From contig NC_134028.1 of the NCBI RefSeq assembly GCF_964204645.1, forward strand, positions 18,979,653 to 19,043,652: DNA of 64,000 nt, read 5' to 3'. Made by a program: the position numbers and the translations under genes. Each line of letters opens with the position of its first letter. Position 1 is the stretch's first letter. Below are positions 26,401 to 56,339 of the stretch, piece by piece. Under the pieces are notes generated by a model. The model searched no databases and was not told where the DNA came from. It saw only the letters and a list, made by a program, of their open reading frames with translations. This DNA comes from Tubulanus polymorphus. Lineage: Eukaryota > Animalia > Nemertea.

Positions 26401-27192
26401 GGAAATATCTCAATTGGTCAGTTTCTGACCATCATGGTGTCACCATGTGGTCTATAGCTCAAATGAAACACGTGGGACCGACGAAAGGGCCCAAAAGCGT
26501 AAGTCATTTCCTGAGTGATGTGATCCAAAAATGCCCTAACTGGAAAAGGCAGTCTTTCAATTGGACGAAACCAAATCGGACAGAACAATTAAAATTTGGG
26601 AAGGCCACAGGCAGTGGTCTTTCTACGAAGCCCACGCGGTAGGCCTATACTTTGAGCGTATCATTATGAAATCTTTTTTTAAACCACCATGTAGGCCTAC
26701 CACATTAAGTAATAAGCATCGTTGTAAGCACTTGAAACACCCATTAACCACTTGAAACTGTCAGATCAAACATCATACCGCATCCCCGCAAAGAGGGGTA
26801 GTTCAGCAAACCGGAGCTTTCATTTGCCTATCTAGACTACCCCGCCAGTACGGGTAGCCGAGCAAACCGGAAAACTCATAATGGTCTCTCAATTGGATGA
26901 AACCAAATCGGACAGGACAATTAAAATTTGGGAAGGTCACAGGTAGTGGTCTTTCTACGAAGCCCACGCGGTGAGCGTATCATTATGAAATCTTTTTCTA
27001 AACCACCATGTACCACGAAGAAATAAGCATCGTTGTAAGCACTTGAAACAGCCATTAACCACTTGAAACTGCCAGATCAAACATCATACCGCATCCCCGC
27101 AAAGAGGGGTGGTTCAGCAAACCGGAGTTTTCATTGGCCTCTCTAGACTACCCCGCCAGTACGGGTAGCCGAGCAAACCGGAAAACTCATAA
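20418..27192. mobile_element. Copy B of the non-coding TIR element, with both termini; right terminal ~310 bp tandemly duplicated
   Basis: Left end TTATGAGAATGCCGGTTTGCT. Right ends AGCAAACCGGAAAACTCATAA at 26881 and 27192. ACTGACC arrays at 20870-21400 are inverted relative to GGTCAGT arrays at 25820-26430. Confidence 0.7.
23650..24056. mobile_element. PIF/Harbinger-like MITE
   Basis: TIR AGGCGCTTTTACGAAA(T/C)TGAATCT with ATA on both flanks (3-bp TSD). Internal AATCGA repeats. Confidence 0.75.
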
Positions 27193-28223
27193 CAGGAATT
27201 CTCTATGATCAATCTGTCAACTGATTTCAACCGAAATTCGTCACTTCCCATTTGCAGAATATGGCATCCTTTGGGGATCTCTTTTTCACTCTAAGTAGGC
27301 CTACTAGCCAACTCTGGTTATTGTCGGATGCCACATTGCATCGAAATGTAAAATGGTGGAGTGTAGAACCGCTCTTTAACTACTTAGTAGGTAAGTAAAG
27401 AGGCCGGCAACTAGTCTATTTGCTGTGAGACGACATGTATATTCTCGGAGCTACCCACTTTTCAACCCAGAAGTGAATATAACAAATTCAATACAATATA
27501 ATTTAGTTCCATTCGAATGTCGTTTTTTGGCGTAGCCAAGGTAAATAGCGAAACAGAATCTATAAGCTCGTAGGTAAGGTTTGCATTTACCAATTCCACG
27601 CTAAGGCTTATAAAAAAGGAAGTGATTATTTAGCCGGATCCGGTCACCGACTTCTGAACGCTAATTTGCCAGATCCATTAGTAACAATAAAATCATATTC
27701 ATGCCTAATCATTTTATTGGTGTAACTCTGTCGAACAAACAATGATCAACTAACGACGGAAAAGTTAAACGTCGCAAATGCGTCTTCCAATTCTTAACAA
27801 ACGTAACTAAGCTAAGCTAAGCGAGACTCGACGATTAAATGACAACGACGTACAGAATCAATCACAATGACGATTAATTACAAGAAAAAACACGTCACGA
27901 CACCTAAGTAACATAATAACACAATAAGTAATACAGAAAGCAACAAACCGGTTAAGCATACCGAAACATTTGGAACTTTTATACCATAGAGCTACAAAGC
28001 TTCTATCAGCATTGAAATCGAATGGCGCATTAAAACTGTGTTTCAAATTTCCGGTACAAAAATCTAGCTAATAACTCACAGAAACCAACATATCCAATTT
28101 GGGAGGGCTCCAAATGGAGTAAAACAGATATTTGAGCTTAACATACCGGCCCCATAATTGGGTCACCAATTATTCCCTTCAAAGGTCAAAATATCCTAAC
28201 TCATATCATTAATAAAATCTTAG

Positions 28224-30202
28224 TGTCGTAGCTCGTTCCCGTATGCACCGGAGTTAACCTCTGATCGAATGCAGGGAGAACCGACCTACGAGTTCCTCTC
28301 AGCTCTTCACCTCACCCACGTTCCTATTCAGCAGGATGCAGCTGTGCCGTTCCTCCTTGTTCCGTACTGTAGAAGCCGGTGGGAAGAATCCTCGAACGAC
28401 CCCGAACCTGCAAGACACTGTAAACATAAGACTTATATTCATGCAGTATTACCAAAAGAAAAATATAAACAAAACTCAAATAATTGAAGCGTCCTTCGCT
28501 AATGAATTAATAACGAATATCGGCAACACAGTTTAGTTCCACACAATCAACTAATAACGTGACCGCCACAAAAACCGAACTAAACTACACCACCCCACGC
28601 CGGACATTCCCGATCCGCCACAAAAACGAATTCTCCACGAAACGAAATCTATGAACGAAAACTTTCTGCGAACGCACGCAGAATCATATACGCCACAATC
28701 ACCAATACGAGCACGAATACCACGCACCCGAATTTAGTATAAAACCATATTATTTGATTAACGCTGCTGGGAATCTGCAGTGTCGTCTTGTGTTGCATGA
28801 TTTTATACTAAATTCGGGTGCGTGGTATTCGTGCTCGTATTGGTGATTGTGGCGTATATGATTCTGCGTGCGTTCGCAGAAAGTTTTCGTTCATAGATTT
28901 CGTTTCGTGGAGGAGAATTCGTTTTTGTGGCGGATCGGGAATGTCCGGCGTGGGGTGGTGTAGTTTAGTTCGGTTTTTGTGGCGGTCACGTTATTAGTTG
29001 ATTGTGTGGAACTAAACTGTGTTGCCGATATTCGTTATTAATTCATTAGCGAAGGACGCTTCAATTATTTGAGTTTTGTTTATATTTTTCTTTTGGTAAT
29101 ACTGCATGAATATAAGTCTTATGTTTACAGTGTCTTGTAGGTAATTGTGTTTAATTATTTACTTTTCTTGTCATTTTTGTTTGTTTTTGTTTTTGTTTTT
29201 TTTGTTTTTTTGTGTTTTTTTTTTTGCTTTATTTGATTGTTTTTTTTTTGCTTGCTTTTGATTAATTGTAATTCGATTTGCTAGGATTGTGGTACACTTA
29301 ACACGCTTGTTTGTTACAATAATATTGTGGTTGGTGGAGCTAGGGGTAGAGAGTTTTTTTTTTTTTAGCTTATCGCATAAGAGTAAGTAGTTACGGTACA
29401 AACAATCAACACTGTTCTTGTCGATAACTGTATCAACGTGGTTTTTTTCAAATCATAGTGTTCACAGGTTACGGGTGTGAGTATATTAACGGGAAATTTA
29501 GACGTCCATATTAGGTTATTTCGTACGGTATATACTGGGTAAGAAATTGACTTGAAACATGTCGACGCTTGAGCGTGTACTTTTTGTAGAAATAGATCCT
29601 GTATCGGTGACTGAGCGTGAGTTGTCGACTGCTTTAATGGCTTATGGAGTGGTGGAATTAGTTGTCGAGGATCCTCGCGGCAAAGGTTGGTTTGTGATGT
29701 TCACCAGAGTGTCTACTGTAATGTCTTTGTTGTCGGTGGGTGAGTTGCCAGTAGGTAAGGCTATCGCTACACTCACCTGTATTGATGCCGCGGAGGCTGA
29801 GCAAGTGGGGGATATTCTATCCGAGGGGAGGGAGAGGAAGGCGCTAGAAGAGGCTCAACGCCTTCTTAGCTCCGTTAGGAGGAATTCTGCTCAGCGTAGC
29901 TTCCTACAGTCGAAATTAGACTCGGTCACCCCGGTTAAAGTGGTCCCAGAGCGGGCTGTTGGGGTTCAGCCGATATCTTTTTCCTCACCACGGTTGGACA
30001 ATTTCTCTGGAAGTGAGCGGAAAGGCGAAACCACGTATAAACTCTGGAGGTCGCAGGTGGAAGGTTTATTAACTGATCCCGCGATTTCGGATCACGCCCT
30101 TTTGGCTCTAATAAGACGATCGGTCCGGGAATTGCCGGCCGAGATTGTATTGAGCATGGGCAGTAGCGTTACTCCGGAGGATGTGTTGCGGAAATTCGAT
30201 TC
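28224..30202 (+). mobile_element. Duplicated left end of the inverted-terminus Gypsy (inverted U5-like segment, hairpin 28406-29142, truncated gag)
   Basis: Near-identical to 33156-35134. Confidence 0.9.
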
Positions 30203-30221
30203 GGCCTACCACATTAAGTAA
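29559..30221 (+). pseudogene. Truncated PNMA-like gag (220 aa) ending in junction-derived AYHIK
   Basis: Matches the first 215 aa of ORF 34491-35861 (one L/P difference), then reads into flank. Confidence 0.85.
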
Positions 30222-32660
30222 TAAGCATCGTTGTAAGCACTTGAAACACCCATTAACCACTTGAAACTGTCAGATCAAACATCATACCGCATCCCCGCAA
30301 AGAGGGGTAGTTCAGCAAACCGGAGCTTTCATTTGCCTATCTAGACTACCCCGCCAGTACGGGTAGCCGAGCAAACCGGAAAACTCATAATGGTCTCTCA
30401 ATTGGATGAAACCAAATCGGACAGGACAATTAAAATTTGGGAAGGTCACAGGTAGTGGTCTTTCTACGAAGCCCACGCGGTGAGCGTATCATTATGAAAT
30501 CTTTTTCTAAACCACCATGTACCACGAAGAAATAAGCATCGTTGTAAGCACTTGAAACAGCCATTAACCACTTGAAACTGCCAGATCAAACATCATACCG
30601 CATCCCCGCAAAGAGGGGTGGTTCAGCAAACCGGAGTTTTCATTGGCCTCTCTAGACTACCCCGCCAGTACGGGTAGCCGAGCAAACCGGAAAACTCATA
30701 ACAGGAATTCTCTATGATCAATCTGTCAACTGATTTCAACCGAAATTCGTCACTTCCCATTTGCAGAATATGGCATCCTTTGGGGATCTCTTTTTCACTC
30801 TAAGTAGGCCTACTAGCCAACTCTGGTTATTGTCGGATGCCACATTGCATCGAAATGTAAAATGGTGGAGTGTAGAACCGCTCTTTAACTACTTAGTAGG
30901 TAAGTAAAGAGGCCGGCAACTAGTCTATTTGCTGTGAGACGACATGTATATTCTCGGAGCTACCCACTTTTCAACCCAGAAGTGAATATAACAAATTCAA
31001 TACAATATAATTTAGTTCCATTCGAATGTCGTTTTTTGGCGTAGCCAAGGTAAATAGCGAAACAGAATCTATAAGCTCGTAGGTAAGGTTTGCATTTACC
31101 AATTCCACGCTAAGGCTTATAAAAAAGGAAGTGATTATTTAGCCGGATCCGGTCACCGACTTCTGAACGCTAATTTGCCAGATCCATTAGTAACAATAAA
31201 ATCATATTCATGCCTAATCATTTTATTGGTGTAACTCTGTCGAACAAACAATGATCAACTAAGGCGCTAGAAGAGGCTCAACGCCTTCTTAGCTCCGTTA
31301 GGAGGAATTCTGCTCAGCGTAGCTTCCTACAGTCGAAATTAGACTCGGTCACCCCGGTTAAAGTGGTCCCAGAGCGGGCTGTTGGGGTTCAGCCGATATC
31401 TTTTTCCTCACCACGGTTGGACAATTTCTCTGGAAGTGAGCGGAAAGGCGAAACCACGTATAAACTCTGGAGGTCGCAGGTGGAAGGTTTATTAACTGAT
31501 CCCGCGATTTCGGATCACGCCCTTTTGGCTCTAATAAGACGATCGGTCCGGGAATTGCCGGCCGAGATTGTATTGAGCATGGGCAGTAGCGTTACTCCGG
31601 AGGATGTGTTGCGGAAATTCGATTCGGCCTACCACATTAAGTAATAAGCATCGTTGTAAGCACTTGAAACACCCATTAACCACTTGAAACTGTCAGATCA
31701 AACATCATACCGCATCCCCGCAAAGAGGGGTAGTTCAGCAAACCGGAGCTTTCATTTGCCTATCTAGACTACCCCGCCAGTACGGGTAGCCGAGCAAACC
31801 GGAAAACTCATAATGGTCTCTCAATTGGATGAAACCAAATCGGACAGGACAATTAAAATTTGGGAAGGTCACAGGTAGTGGTCTTTCTACGAAGCCCACG
31901 CGGTGAGCGTATCATTATGAAATCTTTTTCTAAACCACCATGTACCACGAAGAAATAAGCATCGTTGTAAGCACTTGAAACAGCCATTAACCACTTGAAA
32001 CTGCCAGATCAAACATCATACCGCATCCCCGCAAAGAGGGGTGGTTCAGCAAACCGGAGTTTTCATTGGCCTCTCTAGACTACCCCGCCAGTACGGGTAG
32101 CCGAGCAAACCGGAAAACTCATAACAGGAATTCTCTATGATCAATCTGTCAACTGATTTCAACCGAAATTCGTCACTTCCCATTTGCAGAATATGGCATC
32201 CTTTGGGGATCTCTTTTTCACTCTAAGTAGGCCTACTAGCCAACTCTGGTTATTGTCGGATGCCACATTGCATCGAAATGTAAAATGGTGGAGTGTAGAA
32301 CCGCTCTTTAACTACTTAGTAGGTAAGTAAAGAGGCCGGCAACTAGTCTATTTGCTGTGAGACGACATGTATATTCTCGGAGCTACCCACTTTTCAACCC
32401 AGAAGTGAATATAACAAATTCAATACAATATAATTTAGTTCCATTCGAATGTCGTTTTTTGGCGTAGCCAAGGTAAATAGCGAAACAGAATCTATAAGCT
32501 CGTAGGTAAGGTTTGCATTTACCAATTCCACGCTAAGGCTTATAAAAAAGGAAGTGATTATTTAGCCGGATCCGGTCACCGACTTCTGAACGCTAATTTG
32601 CCAGATCCATTAGTAACAATAAAATCATATTCATGCCTAATCATTTTATTGGTGTAACTC

Positions 32661-33075
32661 TGTCGAACAAACAATGATCAACTAACGACGGAAAAGTTAA
32701 ACGTCGCAAATGCGTCTTCCAATTCTTAACAAACGTAACTAAGCTAAGCTAAGCGAGACTCGACGATTAAATGACAACGACGTACAGAATCAATCACAAT
32801 GACGATTAATTACAAGAAAAAACACGTCACGACACCTAAGTAACATAATAACACAATAAGTAATACAGAAAGCAACAAACCGGTTAAGCATACCGAAACA
32901 TTTGGAACTTTTATACCATAGAGCTACAAAGCTTCTATCAGCATTGAAATCGAATGGCGCATTAAAACTGTGTTTCAAATTTCCGGTACAAAAATCTAGC
33001 TAATAACTCACAGAAACCAACATATCCAATTTGGGAGGGCTCCAAATGGAGTAAAACAGATATTTGAGCTTAACA
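32661..33075 (-). repeat. Probable 3' LTR of the minus-strand BEL element (duplicate at 27729-28143)
   Basis: On the minus strand, PPT-like GGGGCCGGTA (33085-33076) is followed by TGTTAAG. Distal CA boundary uncertain (32653 or 32661). Confidence 0.6.
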
Positions 33076-33337
33076 TACCGGCCCCATAATTGGGTCACCA
33101 ATTATTCCCTTCAAAGGTCAAAATATCCTAACTCATATCATTAATAAAATCTTAGTGTCGTAGCTCGTTCCCGTATGCACCGGAGTTAACCTCTGATCGA
33201 ATGCAGGGAGAACCGACCTACGAGTTCCTCTCAGCTCTTCACCTCACCCACGTTCCTATTCAGCAGGATGCAGCTGTGCCGTTCCTCCTTGTCCCGTACT
33301 GTAGAAGCCGGTGGGAAGAATCCTCGAACGACCCCGA

Positions 33338-34074
33338 ACCTGCAAGACACTGTAAACATAAGACTTATGTTCATGCAGTATTACCAAAAGAAAAATATAA
33401 ACAAAACTCAAATAATTGAAGCGTCCTTCGCTAATGAATTAATAACGAATATCGGCAACACAGTTTAGTTCCACACAATCAACTAATAACGTGACCGCCA
33501 CAAAAACCGAACTAAACTACACCACCCCACGCCGGACATTCCCGATCCGCCACAAAAACGAATTCTCCACGAAACGAAATCTATGAACGAAAACTTTCTG
33601 CGAACGCACGCAGAATCATATACGCCACAATCACCAATACGAGCACGAATACCACGCACCCGAATTTAGTATAAAACCATATTATTTGATTAACGCTGCT
33701 GGGAATCTGCAGTGTCGTCTTGTGTTGCATGATTTTATACTAAATTCGGGTGTGTGGTATTCGTGCTCGTATTGGTGATTGTGGCGTATATGATTCTGCG
33801 TGCGTTCGCAGAAAGTTTTCGTTCATAGATTTCGTTTCGTGGAGGAGAATTCGTTTTTGTGGCGGATCGGGAATGTCCGGCGTGGGGTGGTGTAGTTTAG
33901 TTCGGTTTTTGTGGCGGTCACGTTATTAGTTGATTGTGTGGAACTAAACTGTGTTGCCGATATTCGTTATTAATTCATTAGCGAAGGACGCTTCAATTAT
34001 TTGAGTTTTGTTTATATTTTTCTTTTGGTAATACTGCATGAATATAAGTCTTATGTTTACAGTGTCTTGTAGGT
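33338..34074. repeat. Long inverted repeat (hairpin), ~340-bp arms, ~48-nt loop
   Basis: 33338-33680 is the reverse complement of 33729-34074 apart from a few substitutions and one 3-bp indel. Confidence 0.95.
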
Positions 34075-34490
34075 AATTGTGTTTAATTATTTACTTTTCT
34101 TGTCATTTTTGTTTGTTTTTGTTTTTGTTTTTTTTGTTTTTTTGTGTTTTTTTTTTTGCTTTATTTGATTGTTTTTTTTTTGCTTGCTTTTGATTAATTG
34201 TAATTCGATTTGCTAGGATTGTGGTACACTTAACACGCTTGTTTGTTACAATAATATTGTGGTTGGTGGAGCTAGGGGTAGAGTGTTTTTTTTTTTTTAG
34301 CTTATCGCATAAGAGTAAGTAGTTACGGTACAAACAATCAACACTGTTCTTGTCGATAACTGTATCAACGTGGTTTTTTTCAAATCATAGTGTTCACAGG
34401 TTACGGGTGTGAGTATATTAACGGGAAATTTAGACGTCCATATTAGGTTATTTCGTACGGTATATACTGGGTAAGAAATTGACTTGAAAC

Positions 34491-35861
34491 ATGTCGACGC
34501 TTGAGCGTGTACTTTTTGTAGAAATAGATCCTGTATCGGTGACTGAGCGTGAGTTGTCGACTGCTTTAATGGCTTATGGAGTGGTGGAATTAGTTGTCGA
34601 GGATCCTCGCGGCAAAGGTTGGTTTGTGATGTTCACCAGAGTGTCTACTGTAATGTCTTTGTTGTCGGTGGGTGAGTTGCCAGTAGGTAAGGCTATCGCT
34701 ACACTCACCTGTATTGATGCCGCGGAGGCTGAGCAAGTGGGGGATATTCTATCCGAGGGGAGGGAGAGGAAGGCGCTAGAAGAGGCTCAACGCCTTCTTA
34801 GCTCCGTTAGGAGGAATTCTGCTCAGCGTAGCTTCCTACAGTCGAAATTAGACTCGGTCACCCCGGTTAAAGTGGTCCCAGAGCGGGCTGTTGGGGTTCA
34901 GCCGATATCTTTTTCCTCACCACGGTTGGACAATTTCTCTGGAAGTGAGCGGAAAGGCGAAACCACGTATAAACTCTGGAGGTCGCAGGTGGAAGGTTTA
35001 TTAACTGATCCCGCGATTTCGGATCACGCCCTTTTGGCTCCAATAAGACGATCGGTCCGGGAATTGCCGGCCGAGATTGTATTGAGCATGGGCAGTAGCG
35101 TTACTCCGGAGGATGTGTTGCGGAAATTCGATTCCGTGTTTGGGTCAGTAACGACTCCGACTCAGGCATTGTCAGCATTTTTTACTGCGGAACAAAGACC
35201 CGAGGAATCCGTTGCCCTTTGGGCCTGTCGTCTCGAGACCCTGAAGAGTCGTGTTCTGGGAGTAAGTGAGGAGATGTTAAGATCGCAATTCTGTAACGGT
35301 CTGAAGGACTCTCAGATTAAGCTGGCATTGCGACCGACTCTTTCCACGGCTGCTAGTTTCCCTGACATGGTCCTGGAAGCTAGAGGTGTGGAGGACATGA
35401 TAGGAAAGACTTCGACAACACCGGTACACAGAAGGTCGGGAGTTGTGCAGCAGCACGCAGTTCAACCTCAAAAGATAAAACTTAAGAGTTCAGTCTCGTT
35501 AGAGGATGTTGCTGCTAAATTAGATGATGTAGTTAGAAAATTGAATGGGTTCGAACTGGAAATTCATCGCTTAAGTAAACGAGTTGACCATATAGATCGA
35601 GTGGTGGAACAGTTCGGGTTGGGGGTAGAAGGAAGGAGTCAGACCGATACGAAGGTTTCGGTTGACCCTGATCCACCGATCTCGACAAAGCGCTGTTTCA
35701 AGTGTGATTTGCCTGGTCATTTTGTCAGGGAGTGTCCTCAGTGGAGGAACGACATGGGTTTGCGTCGACCTCCGCCCACTTACACCTGTTATAAATGTAA
35801 TGTCGTTGGTGATCACTACTTTCAGGATTGTGGGAAAGGACAGCCACCGTTAAACTCCTAA
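34491..35861 (+). CDS. Gypsy Gag, PNMA-like (RRM-like N-terminus, capsid, two CCHC zinc knuckles), 456 aa
   Basis: Motifs PRLDNFSG...YKLWRSQV, IRRSV, KFDSVFG, QRPEESV, CFKCDLPGHFVREC and CYKCNVVGDHYFQDC. Ends GTTAAACTCCTAA with pol starting in the -1 frame. Confidence 0.9.
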   Translation: MSTLERVLFVEIDPVSVTERELSTALMAYGVVELVVEDPRGKGWFVMFTRVSTVMSLLSVGELPVGKAIATLTCIDAAEAEQVGDILSEGRERKALEEAQRLLSSVRRNSAQRSFLQSKLDSVTPVKVVPERAVGVQPISFSSPRLDNFSGSERKGETTYKLWRSQVEGLLTDPAISDHALLAPIRRSVRELPAEIVLSMGSSVTPEDVLRKFDSVFGSVTTPTQALSAFFTAEQRPEESVALWACRLETLKSRVLGVSEEMLRSQFCNGLKDSQIKLALRPTLSTAASFPDMVLEARGVEDMIGKTSTTPVHRRSGVVQQHAVQPQKIKLKSSVSLEDVAAKLDDVVRKLNGFELEIHRLSKRVDHIDRVVEQFGLGVEGRSQTDTKVSVDPDPPISTKRCFKCDLPGHFVRECPQWRNDMGLRRPPPTYTCYKCNVVGDHYFQDCGKGQPPLNS

Positions 35862-38800
35862 GGGATCAGCGTTCTGGGCGCGTTGGGCCCCGCCATGGTG
35901 AAAAGCCCAAGTCGGAAATTAAATCGCCGTCGGTTGCGTCTCGCGAAGAGTTGATAGAAGGGTTATTGGGACCTCCAGTGAGACAGAGGTTCTCGTAAAT
36001 AGTGTCGGTTGCAAGGCCCTGATTGACACTGGCGCCATGGTGTCAACGGTGTCGGTGTCATTTGCACAACAGATAGGTGCGGCAGTGTACCCTTTGGAGG
36101 GGATCTTGAATGTTTCGACAGCTGCGGGTCATAAGTTGCCCTATCTCGGTTGTACTGTCGTGACACTCGGTATCGGGAACAAAGAAATCGAGGTATTGTC
36201 GCTGGTTGTGCCGGAAACTGAATATAACCGGGTAGTACCGGTTGTCGTAGGCACGAATGTCTTGAAACGGGTATGCGGACTCGTAGATGAGTTACCCCTG
36301 CCTTGGAAGGCATGCGTCCAGTCAATGGCGCAAGTGGAGGAAGAGCTGGTAAAAACGACAAAGCCGATACAAGTGCCTCCCATGAGCGAAATTGCAATTC
36401 ATGGAATCATCCGAGGGGAGTTGAGTAGAGCTAGTACGGTGATGACCTGTCAGTCTACGGTCGTTTTACCCGGAACGCTTACAGTGGTTCCATCGGTGTC
36501 GTCTTTGAACGGCTACGGAGTGAATCGGGTGACGGTAGTTTTAAGGAATGTGGGTTCATGTCCGGTGAGTATTCCGGCTAAGACGCCCGTTTCCAATGTT
36601 TTCTTAGTGTCGCCGGTTCGCTTGGCAGGGCTCGGGACTGATGCTTGGTCAGCAAGGGACGGTCCCGAGCCAGCTGTCAACGGTTGCGGTAATTTGTTTA
36701 GTATGACTGCTGAGACAAACTGTGTAAATAATTCGAGTGATTTAGAGAATCTGAGTAAAAAAGATTTTCTTGCGTCTTTTAATTTTAAGGACACGTCCTT
36801 GAGCGAGGCTGAGTTTTCAGAGTTGGGAGATTTTCTATACAGTTGGAATTTGTTTATTTTCCAAGTCTGCCGATGACATCGGGCGCACATCGATGGTGCG
36901 ACACCGTATTTTATTGAAAGATAAGATTCCGATCAAAGAACGGTACCGACGGGTACCCCCTGCTATGTTCGAAGAGGTACGCCAGCATTTGAAGATGATG
37001 CTGGATGCGGGTATAACCCGGCACTCGTCCAGCCCTTACGCGTCACCTGTTGTGTTGGTAAGGAAGAAAAATGGTGAGCTGAGGTTCTGTGTCGATTATA
37101 GGGCGTTGAATTCGAAAACTGTTGCCGATAGTTTTAGCTTGCCCAGAATCGATGATCTCTTGGACTCAATGTCTGGGGCGAAACTTTTTTCGAGCCTTGA
37201 TTTGAAGGCAGGTTATTGGCAGGTCGAGATGGAAGAGTCCGACAAAGCAAAAACTGCCTTTTCTGCTGGTCCAGGCTTAGGGTTTTTTGAGTTCAACGTT
37301 ATGCCCTTTGGACTTACAGGGGCGCCGTCCACCTTTCAGCGCCTGATGGAGAGATGTTTGGGCGACTTATGTATGCGCGAATGCTTATGCTATCTGGACG
37401 ATGTCCTTGTACATTCGGTCGATTTTAGGCAGCATTTGGTCCGTTTACAACACGTTTTTGAGCGGTTGCACCAAGCAGGGCTCAAGCTTAATCCGGCTAA
37501 ATGTGTATTCTGTTGTTCGTCTCTCATATATCTAGGGCATAGGTTGTCGTCGGAGGGCATCGAAGCAGATCCCGGTAAAATCCAGGTTATCTCTGATTGG
37601 CCTGCTCCCAAGACCATTGGGGAGGTTCGTAAATTTCTTGGGTTTACGGGGTTTTATCGCAAATTCATTTGCTCTTACGCGTCTATAGCCAAGCCCTTGA
37701 CGGATTTACTGGTGGGTGTTGAATCGGGACGAGGAAAAGCTTCAGAGAAAAACTCAGTACAGTGGGGAGATGAACAGGAGAATAGCTTCCGGGAGCTGAA
37801 ATCTTGTCTCACGACGCCTCCTGTGCTTTGCTTCTCAGATTTTACGAAGCCATTTGAGTTACACGTAGACGCCTCCGGAACTGGTCTCGGCGCTGTTCTC
37901 TACCAGGAGCAAGACGGATGTAAACGAGTCGTGGCATATGCTTCTAGGTCTGTATCAAAGACCGAGCGGAATTATCCGACTCATAAATTAGAGTTCCTGG
38001 CCCTCAAGTGGGCTGTAGTTGACAAATTCAAAGATTATCTCTATGGGAACCGTTGTCGGGTACTTACGGACAATAATCCGCTGACATATGTCCTTTCGAC
38101 GGCGCGTCTGGATGCCACCGGCCACCGATGGCTTCAGGCTCTGTCTGTTTTTGACCTGGAAATTTCTTATCGTCGAGGTTAATTGAATGTCGACGCCGAT
38201 CTCTTGTCCCGATGTGGGGTTAGGTCGGAACACTTGGAGGTCAACAGGGATTGTGACATATCAGGCGAGGTTTTTGCAGCTGTGTGCCAGTCTGTCGTTA
38301 GCGACGTTAAGTTCGTGGAGGCTGATTTCGGTATCGGGGAGGTCGACTTGTTAAAATCCCAGGAGAGAGACCCCATTATTGGTCCCATTCGGGAAGCTTT
38401 AGTCAGCGGGAAGAAAGTAAATCTTACTTCCCGTGAGAGTAGGCGGTATCGAAAGTACTTAGCGGGTTTTTCTGTGAGAAATGGACTACTTTGTCGTCGG
38501 ATGAGAGGTAACACGGGAGAAAGGTGGCAGGTGGTCCTGCCTAATTCCGAGCGAGCCTCAGTGCTAAAGTCATTGCATGATGAGATGGCTCATCCTGGAC
38601 GCGATCGATCAGTTGCGCTTATTAGCGATCGTTTCTTTTGGCCAGGAATGAGAGCGGAGGTGGAGGGTTATGTACGTTCGTGCCGACGCTGTGTACTTTT
38701 TAAATCAACGGTTGAACGGGCTCCTCTTTCTTCGATAGTTACCACATATCCGTTTCAGCTGTTATGTATCGATTATTTGAAAATCGAGCCATCAGGAGGA

Positions 38801-40099
38801 GTTGAAGATGTGTTGGTAATAACGGACCACTTTACGAAGTATTGTTGGGCTTTTCCAACCCGGAATCAACTCGCTTCTACCGTTGCAAAGGTTTTGCACG
38901 AGCAGGTGATTACCAAGTTTGGTATCCCGTTAGTGTTGCATTCCGATCAGGGCCAGAACTTCGAAAGCAAAGTGATCAGGGAACTCTGCAAGCGGGCCGG
39001 AGTGACTAAATCTCGGACCACACCTTACCATGCCATGGGCAATGGGGCGTGTGAGAGATTCAATTTCACTCTCATTGGCATGTTAGGTACGTTGGAGGAG
39101 GGTAAAAAAGGTGGATGGAAGGATTATGTTAGTTCGTTGGTCTTTGCGTACAATTGCACTCCTCATCGGGTGACCGGCTTTGAGCCATATTATCTGATGT
39201 TCGGTCGTCAGCCACGGTTACCGGTGGATTTGCGTTATGGGTTGAGGGCTGATGAGGAGGGGGAAGTTGGAGAGTTCGCTAAGACGGTTGATGAGAGACT
39301 AGAGTATGCTTGGGGAGTTGCGAAGGAGAGAATGGAAACAGTCGGGGGTTATGACAAGGTCAGATATGACAAAGCTGCTCGGGGAGGTGTTCTGGAAGTT
39401 GGGGATTTAGTACTGGTTAAGTGTACTGGGTTTAAAACCAGACATAAAATCGCTGACAAATGGGAGGCGGATCCGTACATTGTGGAATCGAAGCCGGCAG
39501 GTGAAGTACCGGTGTACGAGGTCAGAAACGTAGTTTCTAAAAAGAGGCGTGTTGTTCACCGCAACCTCTTGAGGGTCTTGGCTGTAGAGCTTCGTCCTCC
39601 CCGCGAGGGGGAGAATCCTAGGGTAAAACACTCTAGGGAAATGATTCCTCAGCCGCCGATTGTGGATAGTAAGGTGGGGGAATCCAGTGATGAAGAAGGA
39701 GATGAGTTTTTCATTCTTCATAGGATGCCCGACGTCGGACTCGGGGGTAACCGGAGTGACAGTGGTGAGGAACTCAGTGGCGTAGATAACATTCCGCCCC
39801 CCATAGAGTTTCAGACTCCTGTACACGACGAGGATAGTACGACCTTGCAGGAGGAAGTGGCCCCATCACCAGAGGTTCCTGAAGTCAGGTCCCCTGAGAA
39901 GGAGGTATATCTTCGCAGATCACAGCGGGTGCGAAATAAACCTGGCTGGATGGAGTCGGGCCAGTATGTCCAGTCCTTGACTCAGCCTGAATGGCGAGAG
40001 GGGGCTGATTATTTAGTGTCGTTGGCCGGAAATGCGAGTGTAGCCAGTAACGCATGCTTGCTGAATGCTGTGGTCCAGTTTCTGGTCAGCACGGTATAG
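35849..40099 (+). pseudogene. Gypsy pol (protease, RT, RNase H, integrase) with about three lesions
   Basis: Motifs LIDTGA, RFCVDYR, YLDD, VDASG, TDNNPL, HSDQG and GACERFN. Frameshifts near 35975 and 36850-36890; in-frame TAA at 38180-38182. Confidence 0.9.
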
Positions 40100-40314
40100 T
40101 ATTTTATTGTGAATTTTACTGATTTGTGATACCGTGCAATGGTCTGCAGAGATTGTCTAGTTTGTTTATTTATGTTATATACCTAGCCGGGTTGTGCGGA
40201 TGTTTTATAGCAGGAGGTAGTTATTTTAGTTGTGACAGGTTTCTTTATTCCTAGGGGGTTAAGAGAATTTCCAGGTACATTCCGGGACGGAATGTTCTTC
40301 AGGCGGGGGAAGTA

Positions 40315-41133
40315 TGTCGTAGTGTCGATTTTGCCGGAGTCGATATGTAACTCCGAATTCCGTGCCGCGGTCATTTTACTGGTCTGGCAAGTGGCGCCGC
40401 CAAATTGAGTTGGCGTCCTTGGAGACCCGCAGCGTCAGTCGTCTTCGTATTACTATGAAGTGAAGTACGTTCTTGAATAAACTGTGGCATTTGACAAAGT
40501 TTTCGTGTTGTTTACTCTGCAGGTAAATTAGTTTGATCTTCTCTCTATTTTAAAGTATACTACGATGTGCTCAAGCTTCGAGTTGTTGATCGTCAGGGTG
40601 TTTGGGGTGAATTGATTGTGTGTTTAGGGGAAATTATTCATGGTAGATTTTCCCGCGCTGAGCGTTATCAAGGGGGCGCTGTTGATTATTTGTGGTTTAT
40701 ATGTGTATGTGGTCTGTGTCCTTAAGTATTTAGTAACGCAGTTCTTTTGCTTGATAAATTAACGAATCTTGGGTGAGTAAAATGTGATATTAAATGATGC
40801 AGTTTTGATGTAATGTGAGATATATTTGTTAGATTGATTGTAAATAATTGTAAGGGGAGCGTGAGTCGTCTTCATATTACTATGAAGTGAAGTACGTTCT
40901 TGAATAAACTGTGGCATTTGACAAAGTTTACGTGTTGTTTACTCTGCAGGTTCGGGGTCGTTCGAGGATTCTTCCCTCCGGCTTCTACAGTTCGGGACAA
41001 GGAGGAACGACACAGCTGCATCCTGCTGAATAGGAACGTGGGTGAGGTGAAGAGCTGAGAGGAACTCGTAGGTCGGTTCTCCCTGCATTCGATCAGAAGT
41101 TAACTCCGGTGCAAACGGGATTGAGCTACGACA
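40315..41133 (+). repeat. 3' LTR of the Gypsy element (819 bp) with an internal ~86-bp direct repeat
   Basis: TGTCGTAG...CTACGACA directly after the PPT. Repeats at 40437-40522 and 40864-40949 each contain AATAAA. Confidence 0.85.
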
Positions 41134-41137
41134 TTAG

Positions 41138-44030
41138 CAAACCTATGCACAAAGACATCTAACAAAAAAATATCAGCACATCAATACTTGGCGATATGCC
41201 GACCGAGGAACAAGGAACTTATACTACAATGTATTCCCCTAACTATAAATCATACAAACGTATTAACCATATAAACCCTCAGAATTAATCCTACAAGAAC
41301 AATAATCTTAACCTTACACACAGAACAACATAATAATCAAACTATACCAAACTATTGTACATGTACGCATCAAACGTAGAAAGAAACAACTCAGTATACA
41401 AATGTCAAGCAGAGACGCCACGATATATGGAAACATAACAACGATTCACGTATCCATTACCAGCAACGTGATCAATTTATCGACCGGACGGATAAACTCG
41501 GTGTTCGCGGTTTTCCCCAAGACGGATCGAACGAAACCTTTCTTGTCTGGACAGGTCTCGACAACACGGCCCATGGCCCAACTATCGCAGCATGAGTTGT
41601 CGACCAGCAATACGACGTCACCGATCTGAAGATTTTGCTTAACGGATTGCCACTTGTGACGCAACTGTTAAGTGGACAAATACTCAAACACCCACCGAAA
41701 ATTGATCCGCTAAGAACTGAACGCTACGCCATCGCTTACGGGCATAATTATCGGTCTTCGCAAAATTACCAGGGGAACCGCATTTTCCTTTTTGCGCGAG
41801 AAGTAAATGGTTCGGAGTGAGCACTTCCATATCATGAATATCACTTGAACCTTTGGTGATAGGACGGTTGTTCAAAATGTTTCCACTTCGCAAAATAGAG
41901 TCGCCAGTAAATCATCATCTAATACTACTGGATTGTCTCTCAGCAAGCCATACAGGACCTGACGCACAGAACGGATAAGCCTCTCCCAGGCACCACTTAA
42001 GTGGGACTCACTGGGCGGATTGAATTCCCACTGGATGCTGCGCTGCTGAAGAGACTTAGATATTTTGTTGACGTCCAAGTTTTCCAATTCCCGACGCATC
42101 TCGGACTCAGCTCCGACTAAATTGGTTCCGTTGTCGGAACGCATAAATTTCACTGGCCCCTTTCGGGCTACGAATCTCCAGAACGAATTTATGCACGAAT
42201 CGGTGTCCAACGAGAATGCGAGCTCCAAGTGGACAGCATGCGACGCAAAACAAGTGAAAATCACACCATACCTTTTTAGAACCAATCGCGACCGTTTAAT
42301 TTCGAAAGGACCAAAGAAGTCCACTCTGGTATGGCTGAACGGTGGTTCATTTACAGCTAACCTCTCGGGAGGCAGATCAGCCATCTTCTGCTCATTCACT
42401 CGTCCGCGATAACGACGGAACAACGTACACTTAATAATGACCGACTTGATCAATGTCACAACTCCGAGTATCCAGTAGGTCTTCCGCACATGAGCTAAAA
42501 TTGAATCGCGACCGAGGTGTCCTACAGCTCTATACGCATCACGAACGATCAATCTGGACACATCCGAATCTTTCGGCAGAACTGACGGATGACGCTGTTC
42601 GTAGGGAATTGTCGCTCGTCCCAAGCGCCCACCAACTCGTATCATATCCTGATCCAAAAACGCATCGATTTGATACAATCTACTTCCCCGACTGACACGA
42701 CCAGAGGGAAGGACGGTTAGCTCGTCGGGGAAGTGCTGCTGCTGGACGATTCGAACGATCAAATCGGTTCCATTGCGAAAGTGTCTCCAGCTGAGGCAAC
42801 GATACTTATCAGGGTCGACAGGATTGCCCCGAACTTTATCACGCAGATAATGAACAACGGATATCAGCCAGCCGACTGCCCGACGCAGTTTAAACCAATC
42901 TCCGTAGTAGTCTATTAACTGACAGACCGGGTGAGGCACCTCACCCTCACGCGCATGCATGGTTCGGAACACGGGTTGGCTCTTTATTTCCGGATCATCC
43001 GACGCATCAAACGATTCATTAGGCCACTCGTCAGGAGCTCGATAAAGAAACTCCGGCCCCTGTAACCACCTTGCTAGCTTGGCGTGAGCCCAGTTGAGAC
43101 TCCGCCCACGAGACGCTTCGTCAGCCGGATTGTCCTCTGATCTTACGTGTCTCCATTTCTGTTCGTCGGGCCCTGCACGGATGGCGCTAACCTTATTCGC
43201 CACGAACGTGCGGAAACGAGTAGATTCGTTTTTCACATATCCTGTCTGTCCAATAGTAGATGTCAACTTGCGCAGGACTAACTTCACTGGAAAAACGAAA
43301 GGCGATATCAGACCCAGAGGATCATACACACTACTGACAATCGATAACAAGCCCCGTCGAGAAGGGGCACGATCCGGAATCGACGGTCGAAAAATGTGTC
43401 AGCACGTACGTCCCATATCATGCCTAAGACACTCTCGATTGACGACGGTTCGGGATCACCATTCAAACACATAGATTACTCCCGACTTTCAGGCAAAACG
43501 GATTCCATCACGTCACGACTATTAGAAATCCAACCGCGCAAATTGAAACTGCCCTTTTTGCAGAGGCTGGTGGCACCATCCAGGAAAACCTTTGCCTCTG
43601 GCATAGAGTTAACCGATTTCAAGTAATCATCCATATAAAAATGCCTGAAAAATGATTCTGAAATCTCTGGTGCGAAATGTTCTTTGTTATCTATGGCAGC
43701 TTGTCGCAACGCTGTGTTTGCTTAACTTGGAGACAAATAAATGACGAGTCATACGATATGTACACGGAGCGCGGCTGGTATCGCTGTTTGGCCACCAGAG
43801 GAAGCGCAAGCAATCTCCATCCCTTTCCGGAACTGACACTATGAGGAACATCTTTTCGACATCGGCAGAGATAGCAATTTTATTTTCCCGGAATCGCTCG
43901 AGAACACCAACTAAGGTACTCGTCAAATACGGGCCCTGCAACGGAACAGTATTTAAGGACGCGCCACAAAACGTAGTGGAACCATCAAGACAACGCGTAT
44001 TTTCCTGCGCGTAGTCATCCAGACGCGTTA
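41138..44030 (-). pseudogene. Degenerate BEL/Pao pol (RT, RNase H, integrase) and 3' UTR
   Basis: Fragments ADVEKMF, LRFLWWP, FYMDD, YDPLG, NPAD, SDNGTN, AWERLIRSV and LTPNHLL, with many frameshifts. Confidence 0.9.
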
Positions 44031-45410
44031 CAAAATCGACGAACGTTTCCTGATGATTCTTCGATTCTTTACGAAACTTAACACGATAAGCTGCCGGTGG
44101 ATAAGATGGCCTCTTTCACGGAGCGATAACACTTCTGATCGGTATCAGATAATGCGAAATATGCCTGCTGCACAGGTCCTGTTAGATAGGGTTCTAACAC
44201 ACGTGTATACTCACTGCCCGCAAGGTTATAACGCTGAGCCAAATTCTCAAAGGTCTTAAAATAGAAATGAATATCATCACTGTTGTTGAGCTTCTGCAGC
44301 TCGATTAACCTCCGCAACTGAGTTACGTTGAATTTCGATTCGATTAATTGATGAACAGTTTTTAACAAAGCCTCGTTATCCTCGCGACGCGTCTCAGAAA
44401 AATGGGCCAGCAATCCCTTGAACATAGTTTCAACACTATTGCCATCAGTCTTCAACGAGTTACCCAGTCCGGGAGATGGCTCGGTAATAACTTTTAAGTC
44501 CGCGAGCGCACTGACTTTATCCTCTTTTGACGGGAGTAAGGCCACACCTAAATGATTGTGTTCGCACAAACACTTGAGATACTCCGCAGTATTACGTCGC
44601 AAAACGGACTTGGATTCTTCACTGGACATCATACGCGGATGTTCTGAAGATACTACTAAGTTTAACGAGACGGACGACAGGATCATACGCGGATGACTCC
44701 TCTGTTGGTCCGACAATACTACTAAACGACGAGACGGACGACAGGATCATACGCGGTTGACTCCTCAGGTGGTCCGACACTACTACTAAACGACGAGACG
44801 GACGACTGGATCATACGCGGACGACTCCGTGGGTGGTCCGACACTACTACTAAACGACGAGACGGACGACTGGATCATACGCGGATGACTCCGTGGGTGG
44901 TCAGACGATACTACTAAACGACGAGACGGACGACTGGATCATACGCGGATGACTCCTCAGGTGGTCCGACGCTACTACTAAACGACGAGACTGACGACTG
45001 GATCATGCGCGGATGACTCCGTGGGTGGTCCGACACTACTACTAAACGACGAGACTGACGACTGGATCATGCGCGGATGACTCCTCAGGTGGCCCGACAA
45101 TACTACTTCAAACTGGTGGCGCGCTCCGTCTGGTCACGTGTGCCAAACCACACCTCGAAAACGCACGAAAAAGTTAGATAAACCGTTTACCTGTAAGGTT
45201 TGCCCCACGCTTTGGGCGCCATTATGTAGAGGGTCCTTCCAACTACATAAAATCAACAACGCGAGATCTTGATGAAAACTTACAGTCAACTTTATTTAAC
45301 GATTCTACCAGACGTTCTCATAAAGCGCGAGCGCCATTTACAACACAAAACTCCACTGACACTGCTGGTGGCGCCACCTTACCATATACCATTAGACTGG
45401 TTCCCCTACA
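44030..45410 (-). mobile_element. 5' fragment of another Gypsy element: 186-bp LTR, tRNA-Lys-like PBS, 64-bp tandem array, partial gag
   Basis: LTR at 45225-45410 (TGTAG...CTACA). PBS TGGCGCCCAAAGCGTGGGG at 45221-45203. Gag motif DDIHFYFKTFENLA...PYLTGPVQQAY...YRSVKEAIL. Confidence 0.8.
44630..45108. repeat. 64-bp minisatellite, ~7 copies
   Basis: ACTAAACGACGAGAC recurs at 44721, 44785, 44849 and 44913, and continues. Confidence 0.9.
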
Positions 45411-45476
45411 GATGGTCTATTGGGATGACGCTGCGCTAGTAATTTACTGGCCCTGGTTCGAGTCTCGCTCTATCCG
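45411..45476 (+). repeat. tRNA-derived sequence abutting the LTR
   Basis: A-box-like TGGTCTATTGG and B-box GGTTCGAGTC at tRNA spacing; stems are imperfect. Confidence 0.45.
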
Positions 45477-45731
45477 CTCTATTTTCTCAAACTGTTCTCC
45501 ACAGTTCCTTCAAATTTTCTAAGTCGCACACCTCTCTGCGTATGCACGGAGTAAATCAGCCAATTAGAGACGATATCTAGCAAAATAGTGTTCAGTAGTC
45601 GGTGACCGGATCTTTTAAATAACTACTGCCTATATAAAAATCATTGCTTAATGAATTATTCAACCAAGTTGAAGAACGTCAATTCAATTCAATGTAGAAG
45701 TAGAAGTAGGCTTATCTATAAGCCCTAAGGC

Positions 45732-50072: not shown

Positions 50073-51439
50073 TTAAACCTAAGCAACAAAATTCACCAGT
50101 AGGAAACCAGCACGAAGAATATTGTATGCTTAACAACTTTCACTCAATGAAATCTACTATCACGTAACAACTTTCACTCAATGAAATCTACTATCACTTA
50201 ACTACTTGCACTCAATGAAATCTACTATCACGTAACAACTGTCACTCAATGAAATCTAACATCACGTAACAACTTTTACTCAATGAAATCTAATATCACG
50301 TTACAACTTTCACTCGATGAAATCTACTATCACTTAACAACTTTCACTCAATGAAATCTACTATCACGTAACAACTTTCACTCAATGAAATCTACTGTTA
50401 CCGGGATAAAGATCGACTGACTGCAAGACTGAATTCTGTTTCTTAACTGACTTTGTTTTACTCACACACACTATATAATATAAGCTATACATTGCTACGT
50501 CACTACTCGTGCACTACCCCCTATCCCAACTACCAATCAACTTTAACTCATTATAATTACCCCCAATCAATCATCTTTATGATAACCACCCCCCGCCAAC
50601 AAAAAAATAATTTGTCCCCACAAATTACCATACAATATTATAAGCATTCATATCAATCTACAAAACGATACACTAAAATGAACACAACATCATTAACCAA
50701 TACGAGGAAAAGAAAACAGATACATATAGATTATCATAAGTTCACCACTGTCCGCGTATCATGTTCGCGGAGGAAAAAACTACCACCAACGTTCGCAAAC
50801 ACGTCATCAATCGCGAGACCGTCAAATACACTGAACATCAACACCGTCCATCGCGTTCCACATGAATATCACTGAACGTTAGAATCATACACGAAAATGA
50901 ATACATATATTAAACACACAAAGTTAAAGATATTTGAATTAAACCATTTGCAGCAGGGTACCCAAGGCACTTATCCCCTAAATAAGAACAATAATTAATT
51001 AACCCCACCATTTGATGCCATCATACCTGGATTGAATCATAATGAACAGAAATAAGTTTAAGCTGACTCACTCCAAATCCTACTTGGAACCCTATAAACA
51101 TCTCACACCTGTAGATCAATTAAGATCCCGACTAGAAGAAACAACAGTCAGCAAAGATAAATAAAATTCCCGCACTAATGAACAGCCAGTTTCATATTTC
51201 AACCTCCCTGTTTTCATAACTGTGTATTACCGGTAACTAACACCTGGCCAGAACTCGCTTAATGACTGTTTTCTAATTAACGCAAATATAAGATTCCTAA
51301 CATTCCCCACACCTTTAACGCAGATAAATTAAAACTTTCACTAATTACCAGCCAAAGTTGCCCGCGCTAACGAACGCTTGTGTGTAATTAATCTCTGCGG
51401 TAAGCAACTGCCCAGTAAAGTTCAAAATACAGTTCATAA

Positions 51440-54400: not shown

Positions 54401-55437
54401 TCGACGACCTTTTTTTTGTCCGGAGGGTACCTATAGGCCCGAGATCGTACGGGCTGTGCGTCCCCAGTGTCAATAAAATGAGGATAGGACTTTGCCTCCC
54501 CTAATTCCGACATGCTGGTGCTAAAAACATCCCTATTCTTACCCAATAACTGATATAATTGTTTTACTTGAGACGCCGATAATTCAGGATTATCTATCTT
54601 AACACCGAGACTGCGCCCAATTGACTCAAATTCGTCCAAAGCTGTCGGACTATTACCTTCGGGGGCTACCGCGTCCATCGCCGACTCGTCAAATTTAGAC
54701 ACTGTATCGACAGAAAATATTTTGCCCACGGCTGTATTTCGGGGAACTTCGATAAAGTGTTCACCCGGATTTATAAATCTTGCCACTAAGTTATTCTGAT
54801 CCAGAGATAAAACTACCGAGGCACCCTGTAGTCCATACTTATTGGTGAAACTAGTCAATGGAGACATCATACCCTGGCCTATTTTGTATGACCGTGAAAC
54901 TCTTACGGGAAATACGTATTCGGACTTTGGCGGAACCGTTAGATGATATTTTGTTCGCGCTAACCCAATGTGAGCAGGCAGAATCAGTCCAACTGTATAT
55001 TTGGAATTTCGTAAATACAATAACTGTTTACCAAAACAAATTGTTGCTTGACTCGACTTAAAGAAAGGCATACCCAGGATAATTTGACGAGGCAGACATT
55101 GAAACACATAAAATGTTTGCCGAACTACGCATGGACCAAAATCTAGATCTAAGTCAATAGCTCCTAAAACAGGAACTCTTTCGCCCGATACACCTAGAAT
55201 AAATTTAACGTTTGAATTATCATATGCTGGAATTCTATTAAAGGCTGATTTTAAAGCAGATTGAGTGATACAGCAAACTTGCGCCCCGGAATCTAACAAC
55301 GACGTAAACTGCCGCCCGTTAATTTTTACCCCCACCAAGTTATCGTCCACCGGCACTCCGTCTATAGACGAGCCAATAGCCATATTCTTTTGCCTACCCA
55401 GAGAAATTTCCTTTAAGCCCTCCCTCTGGACAGGCAC
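51440..55437 (-). pseudogene. Gypsy pol (PR, RT, RNase H, IN, chromodomain-like tail), frameshift near 54135
   Basis: Motifs LLDSGA, WRFCVDYR, YIDD, TDAS, TDH, DILGP, TDRAQNF, GPF and a YIVKKIES...YKILWED...TTEPAENI tail. Confidence 0.9.
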
Positions 55438-55449
55438 GCCCCCCTATTC

Positions 55450-56339
55450 GTACTGCGAGCGCTTAGCCCTACGACAAACCCTGGCCAAATGACCCAACTC
55501 CCCACATTCGTAACATTTATACCCCTTTTTTGGGCAATCCCTGAGCAAATGATTTAACTCACCACATCCGTAACAAGCTCTTTCAATTTAAGTCTCTGCC
55601 GGTTTCCCTCGTCCGCGAGTACACACTTGAGTCTCTGCCATTTGTTGGCCGTGTCCGCATTCTTCCCTCGCCACTGCCCCAGCTTCCAGACCGCCGCCGC
55701 CTACCAACGTCATTGGGCGTCCGTCTTGATGGTGATCTATGTAGCCGTTCATTGCCGCGATCGTCCCGCTGGCTCATCGCCACCATGACCTGCTTGAAAT
55801 CTTCTACCAGTTGCCCAACCTGCGCAGACAAATCATCGAGTTTTCGCTCTTGATCCATGGCAAACGACACTGAAGGGCTATTTGTGCCAAATGCGGCCTC
55901 CGATAACGCCGCTTTCGACTTAAGCTCCTCCATTGATTTAGGAGCCGCCTGCAACACAAACCCTTTTATGTTCGGCCGCAGGCCATTTACCACCGCCTGT
56001 AACACTTGTTTGTCGGGTAATTCAGCCTGTTTCGCTAATTTCTCTACCCGCGCGACATAGTCTAAAACGGCCTCCGATGGCCGCTGAACCTGCGTGAATA
56101 CGTTTGCCACGTCGGTATAACTGCGTAGAGGCGACACAAACCTCTGCTCGAATGCGGTTCGCATCCGCCAGCCCCTGGAACCACTCCAGCGGGCTCTCCC
56201 CCAACAACAGCGGGAAAGCTGCCATGGACTGTTCGTTTGTCAGGCTCTTCAACGTGACAAAATATTGGAACCGGTCGAACCAAGTCCTCGGACACCGCCC
56301 GGTCCCATGAAAAATCTCCGGAGTAATATTAATGTTCAT
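55450..56339 (-). pseudogene. Gypsy gag with two zinc knuckles, frameshifted
   Basis: Motifs PEIFHG, QRPSEAVLDYV, VNGLRPNIK, CYGCGELNHLLRDC and CYECGELGHLARVC. Frame breaks near 56165 and 55583. Confidence 0.85.

What the first reader, a model, noticed from the sequence alone, without database searches (positions are those of the whole stretch)
33152..41137. Gypsy retrotransposon with inverted termini instead of two direct LTRs, integrated with a clean TSD
Seen: there is only one LTR (40315-41133, after the PPT). The left end (33156-~33344) is the reverse complement of the last ~190 nt of that LTR, so both ends are the same U5-type att site (TGTCGTAGCTC...GAGCTACGACA). TTAG flanks both ends, and removing the element rejoins the 3' UTR of the host BEL element to its PPT/LTR. 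No 5' U3 and no tRNA PBS are visible upstream of gag. Established: Ty3/Gypsy elements with DDE integrase have direct LTRs; inverted termini typify DIRS elements, which use a tyrosine recombinase. Inference: integrase inserted a cDNA that already had this shape. I count ~7 differences in ~188 nt between the two termini, against ~1% between the adjacent hairpin arms. That suggests the ends are templated separately and that this may be a heritable family architecture with a different replication scheme. A one-off aberrant reverse-transcription product is the alternative. I know of no described family like this but could not search.
Basis: partly seen in the sequence, partly recalled or inferred. 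Interest (0 to 1): 0.9.

Follow-up and report, generated by a model that had tools for sequence, protein, structure and literature searches.

The report
Malformed one-off Gypsy copy, ordinary family
A broken jumping-gene copy really does carry the same end on both sides, but other copies of its family have normal ends, so it is likely a one-off copying accident rather than a new kind of element.

Summary
The structure is real. 33156-33344 is the reverse complement of the LTR's last 189 nt (7 mismatches), a 346-nt hairpin follows, no primer-binding site (PBS) is left, and TTAG flanks both ends. Reads show the BEL host uninterrupted with one TTAG.

The family reading fails. In raw genomic reads with the same species label, all 76 reads clipped at the U5 junction continue into ordinary LTR, and all 25 clipped at the hairpin loop continue into a linear leader. 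Reads run from the LTR end into a PBS-like motif, and 36 show the LTR start as a left end. About one read at most could span the odd junction.

The copy also has a frameshift and a stop. Both new junctions sit on short imperfect homologies. Best reading: a one-off mis-jumped cDNA with two U5 ends that integrase accepted (0.62). Rival: template switching after insertion (0.28). No read confirmed this copy's own junctions. This scan noted similar one-off copies in four other genomes (unchecked AI notes).

The parts
33152..33155 (+). Left target-site duplication TTAG
   Evidence: uninterrupted site with one TTAG in 5 reads
33156..33344 (-). Inverted copy of the LTR's 3' (U5-side) 189 nt; serves as the left att end
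   Evidence: 7 mismatches to 40945-41133
33338..33676 (-). Left hairpin arm: inverted copy of the element's own leader; joined to U5 at an imperfect homology (33338-33344) and to the loop at a second one (about 33671-33680)
   Evidence: not seen in other copies
33674..33728 (+). Hairpin loop; ordinary leader sequence in other copies, and the point where this copy's true leader begins
   Evidence: 25 reads and contigs of X1 and X2 continue upstream of 33674 with other sequence
33729..34074 (+). Right hairpin arm: ordinary leader
   Evidence: X1 contig spans 33674-34098 linearly
34075..34490 (+). Rest of the T-rich leader
34491..35861 (+). gag with PNMA domain and CCHC knuckle
   Evidence: Pfam PF14893 E 2e-07, PF00098
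35923..36876 (+). Protease frame (DTG motif); out of frame with RT
   Evidence: PF13975 E 1e-09
36803..38182 (+). RT (YLDD) and RNase H frame, ending in an in-frame stop
   Evidence: PF00078 E 4e-34, PF17917
38183..40099 (+). Integrase: HHCC finger and D197, D255, E291 (D-35-E) in the 638-aa frame
   Evidence: PF17921, PF00665
40301..40312 (+). Polypurine tract
40315..41133 (+). The single direct LTR (819 nt), long variant with a 94-nt internal repeat at 40431-40524 and 40858-40951
41134..41137 (+). Right target-site duplication TTAG
41138..43398 (-). Host BEL/Pao element: RNase H-integrase part and 3' UTR, itself broken
   Evidence: PF05380, PF17921
33076..33151 (-). Rest of the host BEL 3' UTR and its polypurine tract; its LTR starts at 33075 reading leftward
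26694..31625 (+). Later complex tandem duplication carrying a second copy of the flank, inverted end, hairpin and gag start (28224-30202)
   Evidence: 5 differences in 3509 nt

Best explanation
This is a broken copy of an ordinary direct-LTR, PBS-bearing Gypsy family whose left end was likely rebuilt once by two mis-jumps during reverse transcription, giving a cDNA with two U5 ends that integrase likely inserted in one step. Shown: the anatomy, the TSD, the ordinary form of other copies, and imperfect homology at both new junctions. Inferred route: a tRNA-primed strong-stop DNA (U5, 189 nt) jumped onto the leader RNA at 34074, where the leader resembles the end of the LTR's 94-nt repeat, in place of the 3' R. 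It copied 346 nt of leader. Its 3' end then annealed to the minus strand at about 33674 and ran forward as the plus strand through gag-pol and the LTR. An equivalent route is a minus strand that stalled at 33674, folded back 48 nt, copied 346 nt and jumped to a U5 template. Either way both termini are tRNA-defined U5 att ends, the PBS and 5' U3 are lost, and the copy would be a dead end. Pairing of U5 ends from two cDNAs in one intasome, followed by repair, would leave the same scar and is counted here.
For: run X5: 76 reads clipped at 33344 all continue into the LTR (agreement 1.0). Mean depth just inside the left arm (33376-33439) is 1.1, against about 105 on U5. 25 reads clipped at 33674 share one linear upstream leader (agreement 1.0), also seen in X1 and X2 contigs; 64 reads clipped behind 41135 have a majority PBS-like continuation (agreement 0.67), also in an X3 contig; 36 reads clipped before 40315 have mixed flanks (0.55). 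The left end is exact to the base and the TSD is intact. Both junctions lie on imperfect homologies. One of the 7 U5 differences (41098) is a family polymorphism, 45 of 100 reads, and 41121 is a second polymorphic site (57 and 32 of 89), which fits two parental templates. Two RNAs are co-packaged and RT switches templates in LTR retrotransposons (PMC6894440, passages). Integrated HIV-1 proviruses with asymmetric LTRs and with inversions exist (PMC9278108, passages).
Against: The hairpin arms look younger than the U5 pair. The 28k copy has 0 substitutions in about 340 nt away from the junction, against 7 in 189 (Fisher p 0.0007). Counted as events, 1 of 340 against 6 of 189 gives p 0.01; the 33k copy gives p 0.08. 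One time of origin therefore needs either two parents for the U5s or later homogenisation of the arms. Six of the 7 U5 differences are absent from all X5 reads, as post-insertion mutations would be. The 8-nt terminal inverted repeat lets a later rearrangement keep the TSD. No read confirmed this copy's junctions. Searches found no paper describing this exact two-U5 product (listings only).
Confidence: 0.62

Rival explanations
1. The copy inserted normally with two direct LTRs. Later, a replication template-switch event (FoSTeS/MMBIR type; mechanism recalled, not read) replaced the 5' LTR, PBS and upstream leader: a switch at the 8-nt terminal inverted repeat onto the far end of the 5' LTR, a second onto the leader at 34074, and a fold-back at 33674.
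For: The arms are nearly identical while the U5s differ by 3.7%. Six of 7 U5 differences are private. The locus has had template-switch-like events: the neighbouring duplication has two more junctions, with 0 and 2 nt of homology. Both LTR ends start with the same 8 nt.
Against: It needs three switches, one landing exactly at the terminus. The two U5s differ at a site that is polymorphic in the family (41098, 45 of 100 reads), whereas the two LTRs of one insertion usually start identical. The hairpin (-434 kcal/mol as single-stranded DNA) could have caused the neighbouring duplication instead of sharing its cause.
Confidence: 0.28
2. The left end is an assembly artefact, such as a fold-back chimeric long read, in a repeat-rich region that is also duplicated.
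For: No read or listed contig piece from the 4 runs laid spans the junctions. The region holds near-identical tandem copies, a pattern that misassembly can give. No genome is held for a cross-check.
Against: The inverted U5 has 2 substitutions found neither in the right LTR nor in any X5 read (33175: 86 of 86 reads differ; 33297: 97 of 97). It ends exactly at the TSD. The loop is genuine leader, not adapter. The two copies of the left end differ from each other at 3 positions.
Confidence: 0.06
3. A heritable inverted-end subfamily exists at low copy number and replicates by its own scheme, for example complemented in trans by ordinary copies.
For: Exact att ends, a clean TSD and separately templated termini. 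The source individual itself could not be searched. X5 was read to only about 12% of the run.
Against: 0 of 76 reads clipped at the U5 junction lead into the arm, and depth allows about one spanning read. The element has no PBS and no DIRS-like internal complementary region (longest internal match to the outer ends 8 nt). It keeps an intact PPT and U3 att end that it would not need. Its pol is broken. No U5-type inverted terminus was seen in 34 of 46 related loci examined, though most do not reach both ends.
Confidence: 0.04

Closest known systems
Ty3/Gypsy (Metaviridae) LTR retrotransposons with a PNMA-type gag; PMC3670739 (passages) lists Barthez as the progenitor lineage of PNMA genes
   Same: gag-PR-RT-RNase H-IN order, DDE integrase, PPT, TG...CA LTR, 4-bp TSD; RT 52-63% identical to the best 120 database hits, whose named eukaryotic sources are molluscs and a sea anemone; other copies have an LTR followed by a PBS-like motif
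   Different: This one copy lacks the 5' LTR and PBS and has an inverted U5 plus a leader hairpin instead. Barthez membership was not tested by a tree.
Defective retroviral proviruses with asymmetric LTRs or inversions (HIV-1; PMC9278108, passages)
   Same: Integrated copies whose two ends differ in structure, attributed there to RT misalignment and switching between the two co-packaged RNAs
   Different: There the asymmetry is mostly deletion in the 3' LTR, and inversions were about 1% classes. The passages read describe no U5-at-both-ends form.
DIRS-1-like tyrosine-recombinase retrotransposons (PMC7192593, passages)
   Same: Inverted, non-identical termini, a superficial likeness only
   Different: No tyrosine recombinase or methylase domain, no internal complementary region, a DDE integrase and PPT are present, and the inverted end is not a family trait.

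Membership tests
Ty3/Gypsy LTR retrotransposon | pol order protease-RT-RNase H-integrase | tested here: met
   Pfam hits in that order
Ty3/Gypsy LTR retrotransposon | DDE integrase with HHCC finger | tested here: met
   D197, D255, E291 and HHCC; PF00665, PF17921
Ty3/Gypsy LTR retrotransposon | Two direct LTRs and a PBS, in this copy | tested here: not met
   One LTR, no PBS motif; the copy is a malformed derivative, not a complete member
Ty3/Gypsy LTR retrotransposon | 5' LTR and PBS, in other copies of the family | tested here: met
   36 reads clipped at the LTR start, 64 behind its end with a majority PBS-like continuation; inferred from short reads, no full-length copy seen
Ty3/Gypsy LTR retrotransposon | PPT before the 3' LTR and a 4-6 bp TSD | tested here: met
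Barthez lineage of Metaviridae | PNMA-type gag | tested here: met
   PF14893 above curated cut-off; link to Barthez from a table in PMC3670739
Barthez lineage of Metaviridae | RT groups with named Barthez elements | not tested
   No named reference sequences at hand; no tree built
DIRS (YR) retrotransposons | Tyrosine recombinase instead of integrase | tested here: not met
DIRS (YR) retrotransposons | Internal complementary region matching both outer ends | tested here: not met
   Longest internal match to the outer 45 nt of either end is 8 nt
Proposed inverted-end Gypsy family | Several copies share the U5-to-leader junction at different target sites | tested here: not met
   0 of 76 clipped reads, depth 1.1 inside the arm; the only second copy in the window shares the flank; source individual not searchable

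The most novel reading that the evidence does not exclude
A rare subfamily with two U5 ends and a palindromic leader propagates as such in the source population, helped in trans by ordinary copies, and was missed because the individual in run X5 lacks it. A milder and likelier novelty (about 0.25): such copies are a recurring class of reverse-transcription accident in which minus strands from both co-packaged RNAs anneal at their 3' ends and copy each other, giving an integrable cDNA with two U5 ends.
Probability: 0.04. Interest if true: 0.85.

Novelty: new member of a known kind. Interest (0 to 1): 0.22.

Why it matters
As it stands it is a readable fossil of a strand-transfer error. It suggests that a Gypsy integrase can accept two U5 ends in vivo, and it shows that a clean TSD with inverted termini is not evidence of a new family. 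Had the family reading held, it would have been an integrase element replicating without a 5' LTR or PBS, which would be a real surprise; the reads argue strongly against that. If two-U5 insertions recur across genomes, counting them would give a rate for an error of reverse transcription that is otherwise hard to observe.

Tried and rejected
Whole-genome search: no genome is held.

Viral-contig scan: no relative.

No RNA holder was listed, so expression was not examined.

Spliced-RNA origin of the arm-U5 junction: rejected. The joint looks like AG|GT, but the base three positions before it comes from the LTR side, so the crossover lies upstream of a splice cut.

Whole 5' LTR flipped in place: rejected, because no inverted U3 follows the U5 and the arm has no similarity to the LTR (best local score 23).

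Second left end at 28224 as an independent insertion: rejected, same flank.

Inverted repeats in related loci: 4 of 34 loci examined had one. L013 carries a 79-nt inverted piece of the integrase-side region at its contig end, and L015 has the same repeat and the same contig end. L043 and L044 have internal hairpins that I did not examine. Twelve loci under 3000 nt were left out.

PBS-like motifs in relatives: the pattern is loose and also hits inside ORFs, so it is weak. L001, L003 and L005 assemble with direct terminal overlaps, which says little about element ends.

No RT tree was built.

Literature: searches (listings only) showed no Gypsy family with inverted termini and no two-U5 report. 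The library lacks most subscription papers and Repbase, so this is not proof of absence.
Full report
OBSERVATION. The left end, 33156-33344, is the reverse complement of 40945-41133 with 7 mismatches in 189 nt. TTAG lies directly outside both ends, and a chance 4-mer match has probability about 0.006 at the local composition. Self-BLAST finds only one LTR, 40315-41133, behind a polypurine tract. A hairpin follows the inverted end: arms 33338-33680 and 33729-34074 with a 48-nt loop. No TGGCGCC motif occurs in 33100-34500 on either strand. The coding region is gag (PNMA domain), protease, RT-RNase H and integrase, with YLDD and a D-35-E triad. It is broken by a frame change between the protease and RT frames and an in-frame stop at 38180-38182. 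The left end appears again at 28224, but inside a tandem duplication with the same flank, so it is not a second insertion.

FAMILY TEST. No genome is held, so I used public runs. One search listed 10 runs under one species label; I laid 4 of them (X5 raw Illumina reads, about 12% of the run read; X1, X2 and X3 contigs; at most 3 samples and 2 studies). On 39900-41700, X5 has 36 reads clipped before the LTR start with mixed flanks (agreement 0.55), so the U3 end is a real left terminus in other copies or solo LTRs. It has 64 reads clipped behind 41135 whose majority continuation looks like a tRNA PBS (agreement 0.67), also seen in an X3 contig, and 11 more clipped at 41133 with another flank. 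On 32800-34700, 76 reads are clipped at 33344 and all continue into the LTR, not the arm (agreement 1.0). Mean depth is about 105 on U5 and 1.1 at 33376-33439, which leaves room for about one spanning read. At the loop, 25 reads clipped before 33674 share one upstream leader (agreement 1.0); X1 and X2 contigs show the same, and an X1 contig runs linearly through 33674-34098. Five reads run from 33155 into sequence matching 41138 onward, which confirms the uninterrupted BEL with one TTAG; they may come from a paralogous BEL copy. Both loose-end tables were cut (21 and 8 rows not shown). The family is therefore ordinary in these samples. Limits: no read confirmed this copy's own junctions, X5 is probably another individual, and no full-length ordinary copy was seen in one piece.

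RELATIVES. The best 120 of 5172 RT hits are 52-63% identical; the named eukaryotic sources are molluscs and a sea anemone. Of 46 metagenome loci, 34 of at least 3000 nt were self-compared. Four had an inverted repeat: a contig-end piece of integrase-side sequence in L013 and its twin L015, and internal hairpins in L043 and L044 that I did not examine. None showed an inverted U5-type terminus. Four relatives (L002, L003, L012, L030) share the PNMA gag. Most loci do not reach both ends, so this is weak evidence.

MECHANISM. Two junctions are new in this copy, and both sit on short imperfect homologies. At 33338-33344 the leader end resembles the end of the LTR's 94-nt repeat (TGTTTAC...TG.AGGT). 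At about 33671-33680 the inverted arm meets the leader over roughly 9 of 11 bases (window letters, compared by eye with the clipped reads). The simplest route is inferred. A strong-stop DNA jumps onto the leader RNA instead of the 3' R, copies 346 nt, anneals to a minus strand at the loop and runs forward as the plus strand; or a stalled minus strand folds back and then jumps onto a U5 template. Both give two tRNA-defined U5 ends, so the exact terminus and the TSD need no coincidence. Co-packaging of two RNAs and RT template switching are established for LTR retrotransposons (PMC6894440, passages).

DIVERGENCE PUZZLE. The reads split the 7 differences. Four are private to the right LTR (40977, 99 of 99 reads differ; 41010, 109 of 109; 41121 and 41122, 89 of 89). 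Two are private to the left end (33175, 86 of 86; 33297, 97 of 97). One is a family polymorphism (41098, 45 of 100). The polymorphic site mildly favours two parental templates. The private sites, together with the young-looking arms, favour a hairpin made after insertion or arms homogenised later. I cannot separate these, hence 0.62 for a malformed cDNA and 0.28 for later template switching, which can keep the TSD because both LTR ends share 8 nt. An assembly artefact (0.06) fits poorly with private substitutions in the inverted end and with 3 differences between its two copies.

COMPARISON. It works like a dead Ty3/Gypsy insertion. It is not DIRS-like beyond appearance: there is no tyrosine recombinase and no internal complementary region, both defining features in PMC7192593 (passages). 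The PNMA gag points to the Barthez lineage (table in PMC3670739, passages), but no tree was built. HIV-1 proviruses with asymmetric LTRs (26 of 88) and rare inversions are the nearest documented accidents (PMC9278108, passages). Searches (listings only; searches located the papers above) showed no Gypsy family with inverted termini. No supplements were read. FoSTeS/MMBIR and palindrome homogenisation are recalled, not read. This scan has four unchecked AI notes of similar one-off copies in other genomes and none for this genome; they are not support.

VERDICT. A real, unusual, single malformed copy of an ordinary family. Interest 0.22. The heritable-family reading keeps about 0.04, only because the source individual could not be searched.

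Noticed in passing
window 40431-40951: The LTR holds a 94-nt direct repeat 427 nt apart. 15 X5 reads go from the first copy straight into U5, and depth between the repeats is about half or less of that on either side, so the family has long and short LTR forms. The extra part has GT...AG-like ends; splicing and repeat recombination would give the same joint.
   Followed up: partly
window 26694-31625: Complex tandem duplication in three pieces (3509, about 1060 and 365 nt) enclosing the hairpin; 5 differences in 3509 nt. A real recent rearrangement or an assembly error; not resolved.
   Followed up: partly
window 34072: At the base of the hairpin the right arm differs from all 14 X5 reads and the X1 contig, and matches the U5-derived base of the left arm. 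This fits conversion between arms or a parent with better junction homology.
   Followed up: partly
window 11457-18192: A second BEL/Pao element with 100% identical 550-nt LTRs and an apparent 5-bp TSD (ATATC): a very recent insertion.
   Followed up: no
window 50396-56606: Another Gypsy element on the minus strand with 189-nt direct LTRs (99%) and an apparent 4-bp TSD (CTAC): an ordinary neighbour.
   Followed up: no
window 44078-45600: The host BEL has no matching 5' LTR. A PBS-like motif with an LTR-like end lies near 45210-45230 on the minus strand, next to a 64-nt tandem array and a 222-aa frame with no Pfam hit; probably a different nested element.
   Followed up: no
window 8156-8845 and 711-1951: Palindromic or inverted-repeat elements, MITE- or foldback-like.
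   Followed up: no
L013 3929-4007 and 4603-4681: A distant Gypsy contig ends in an inverted 79-nt piece of its own integrase-side sequence; L015 has the same repeat.
   Followed up: partly
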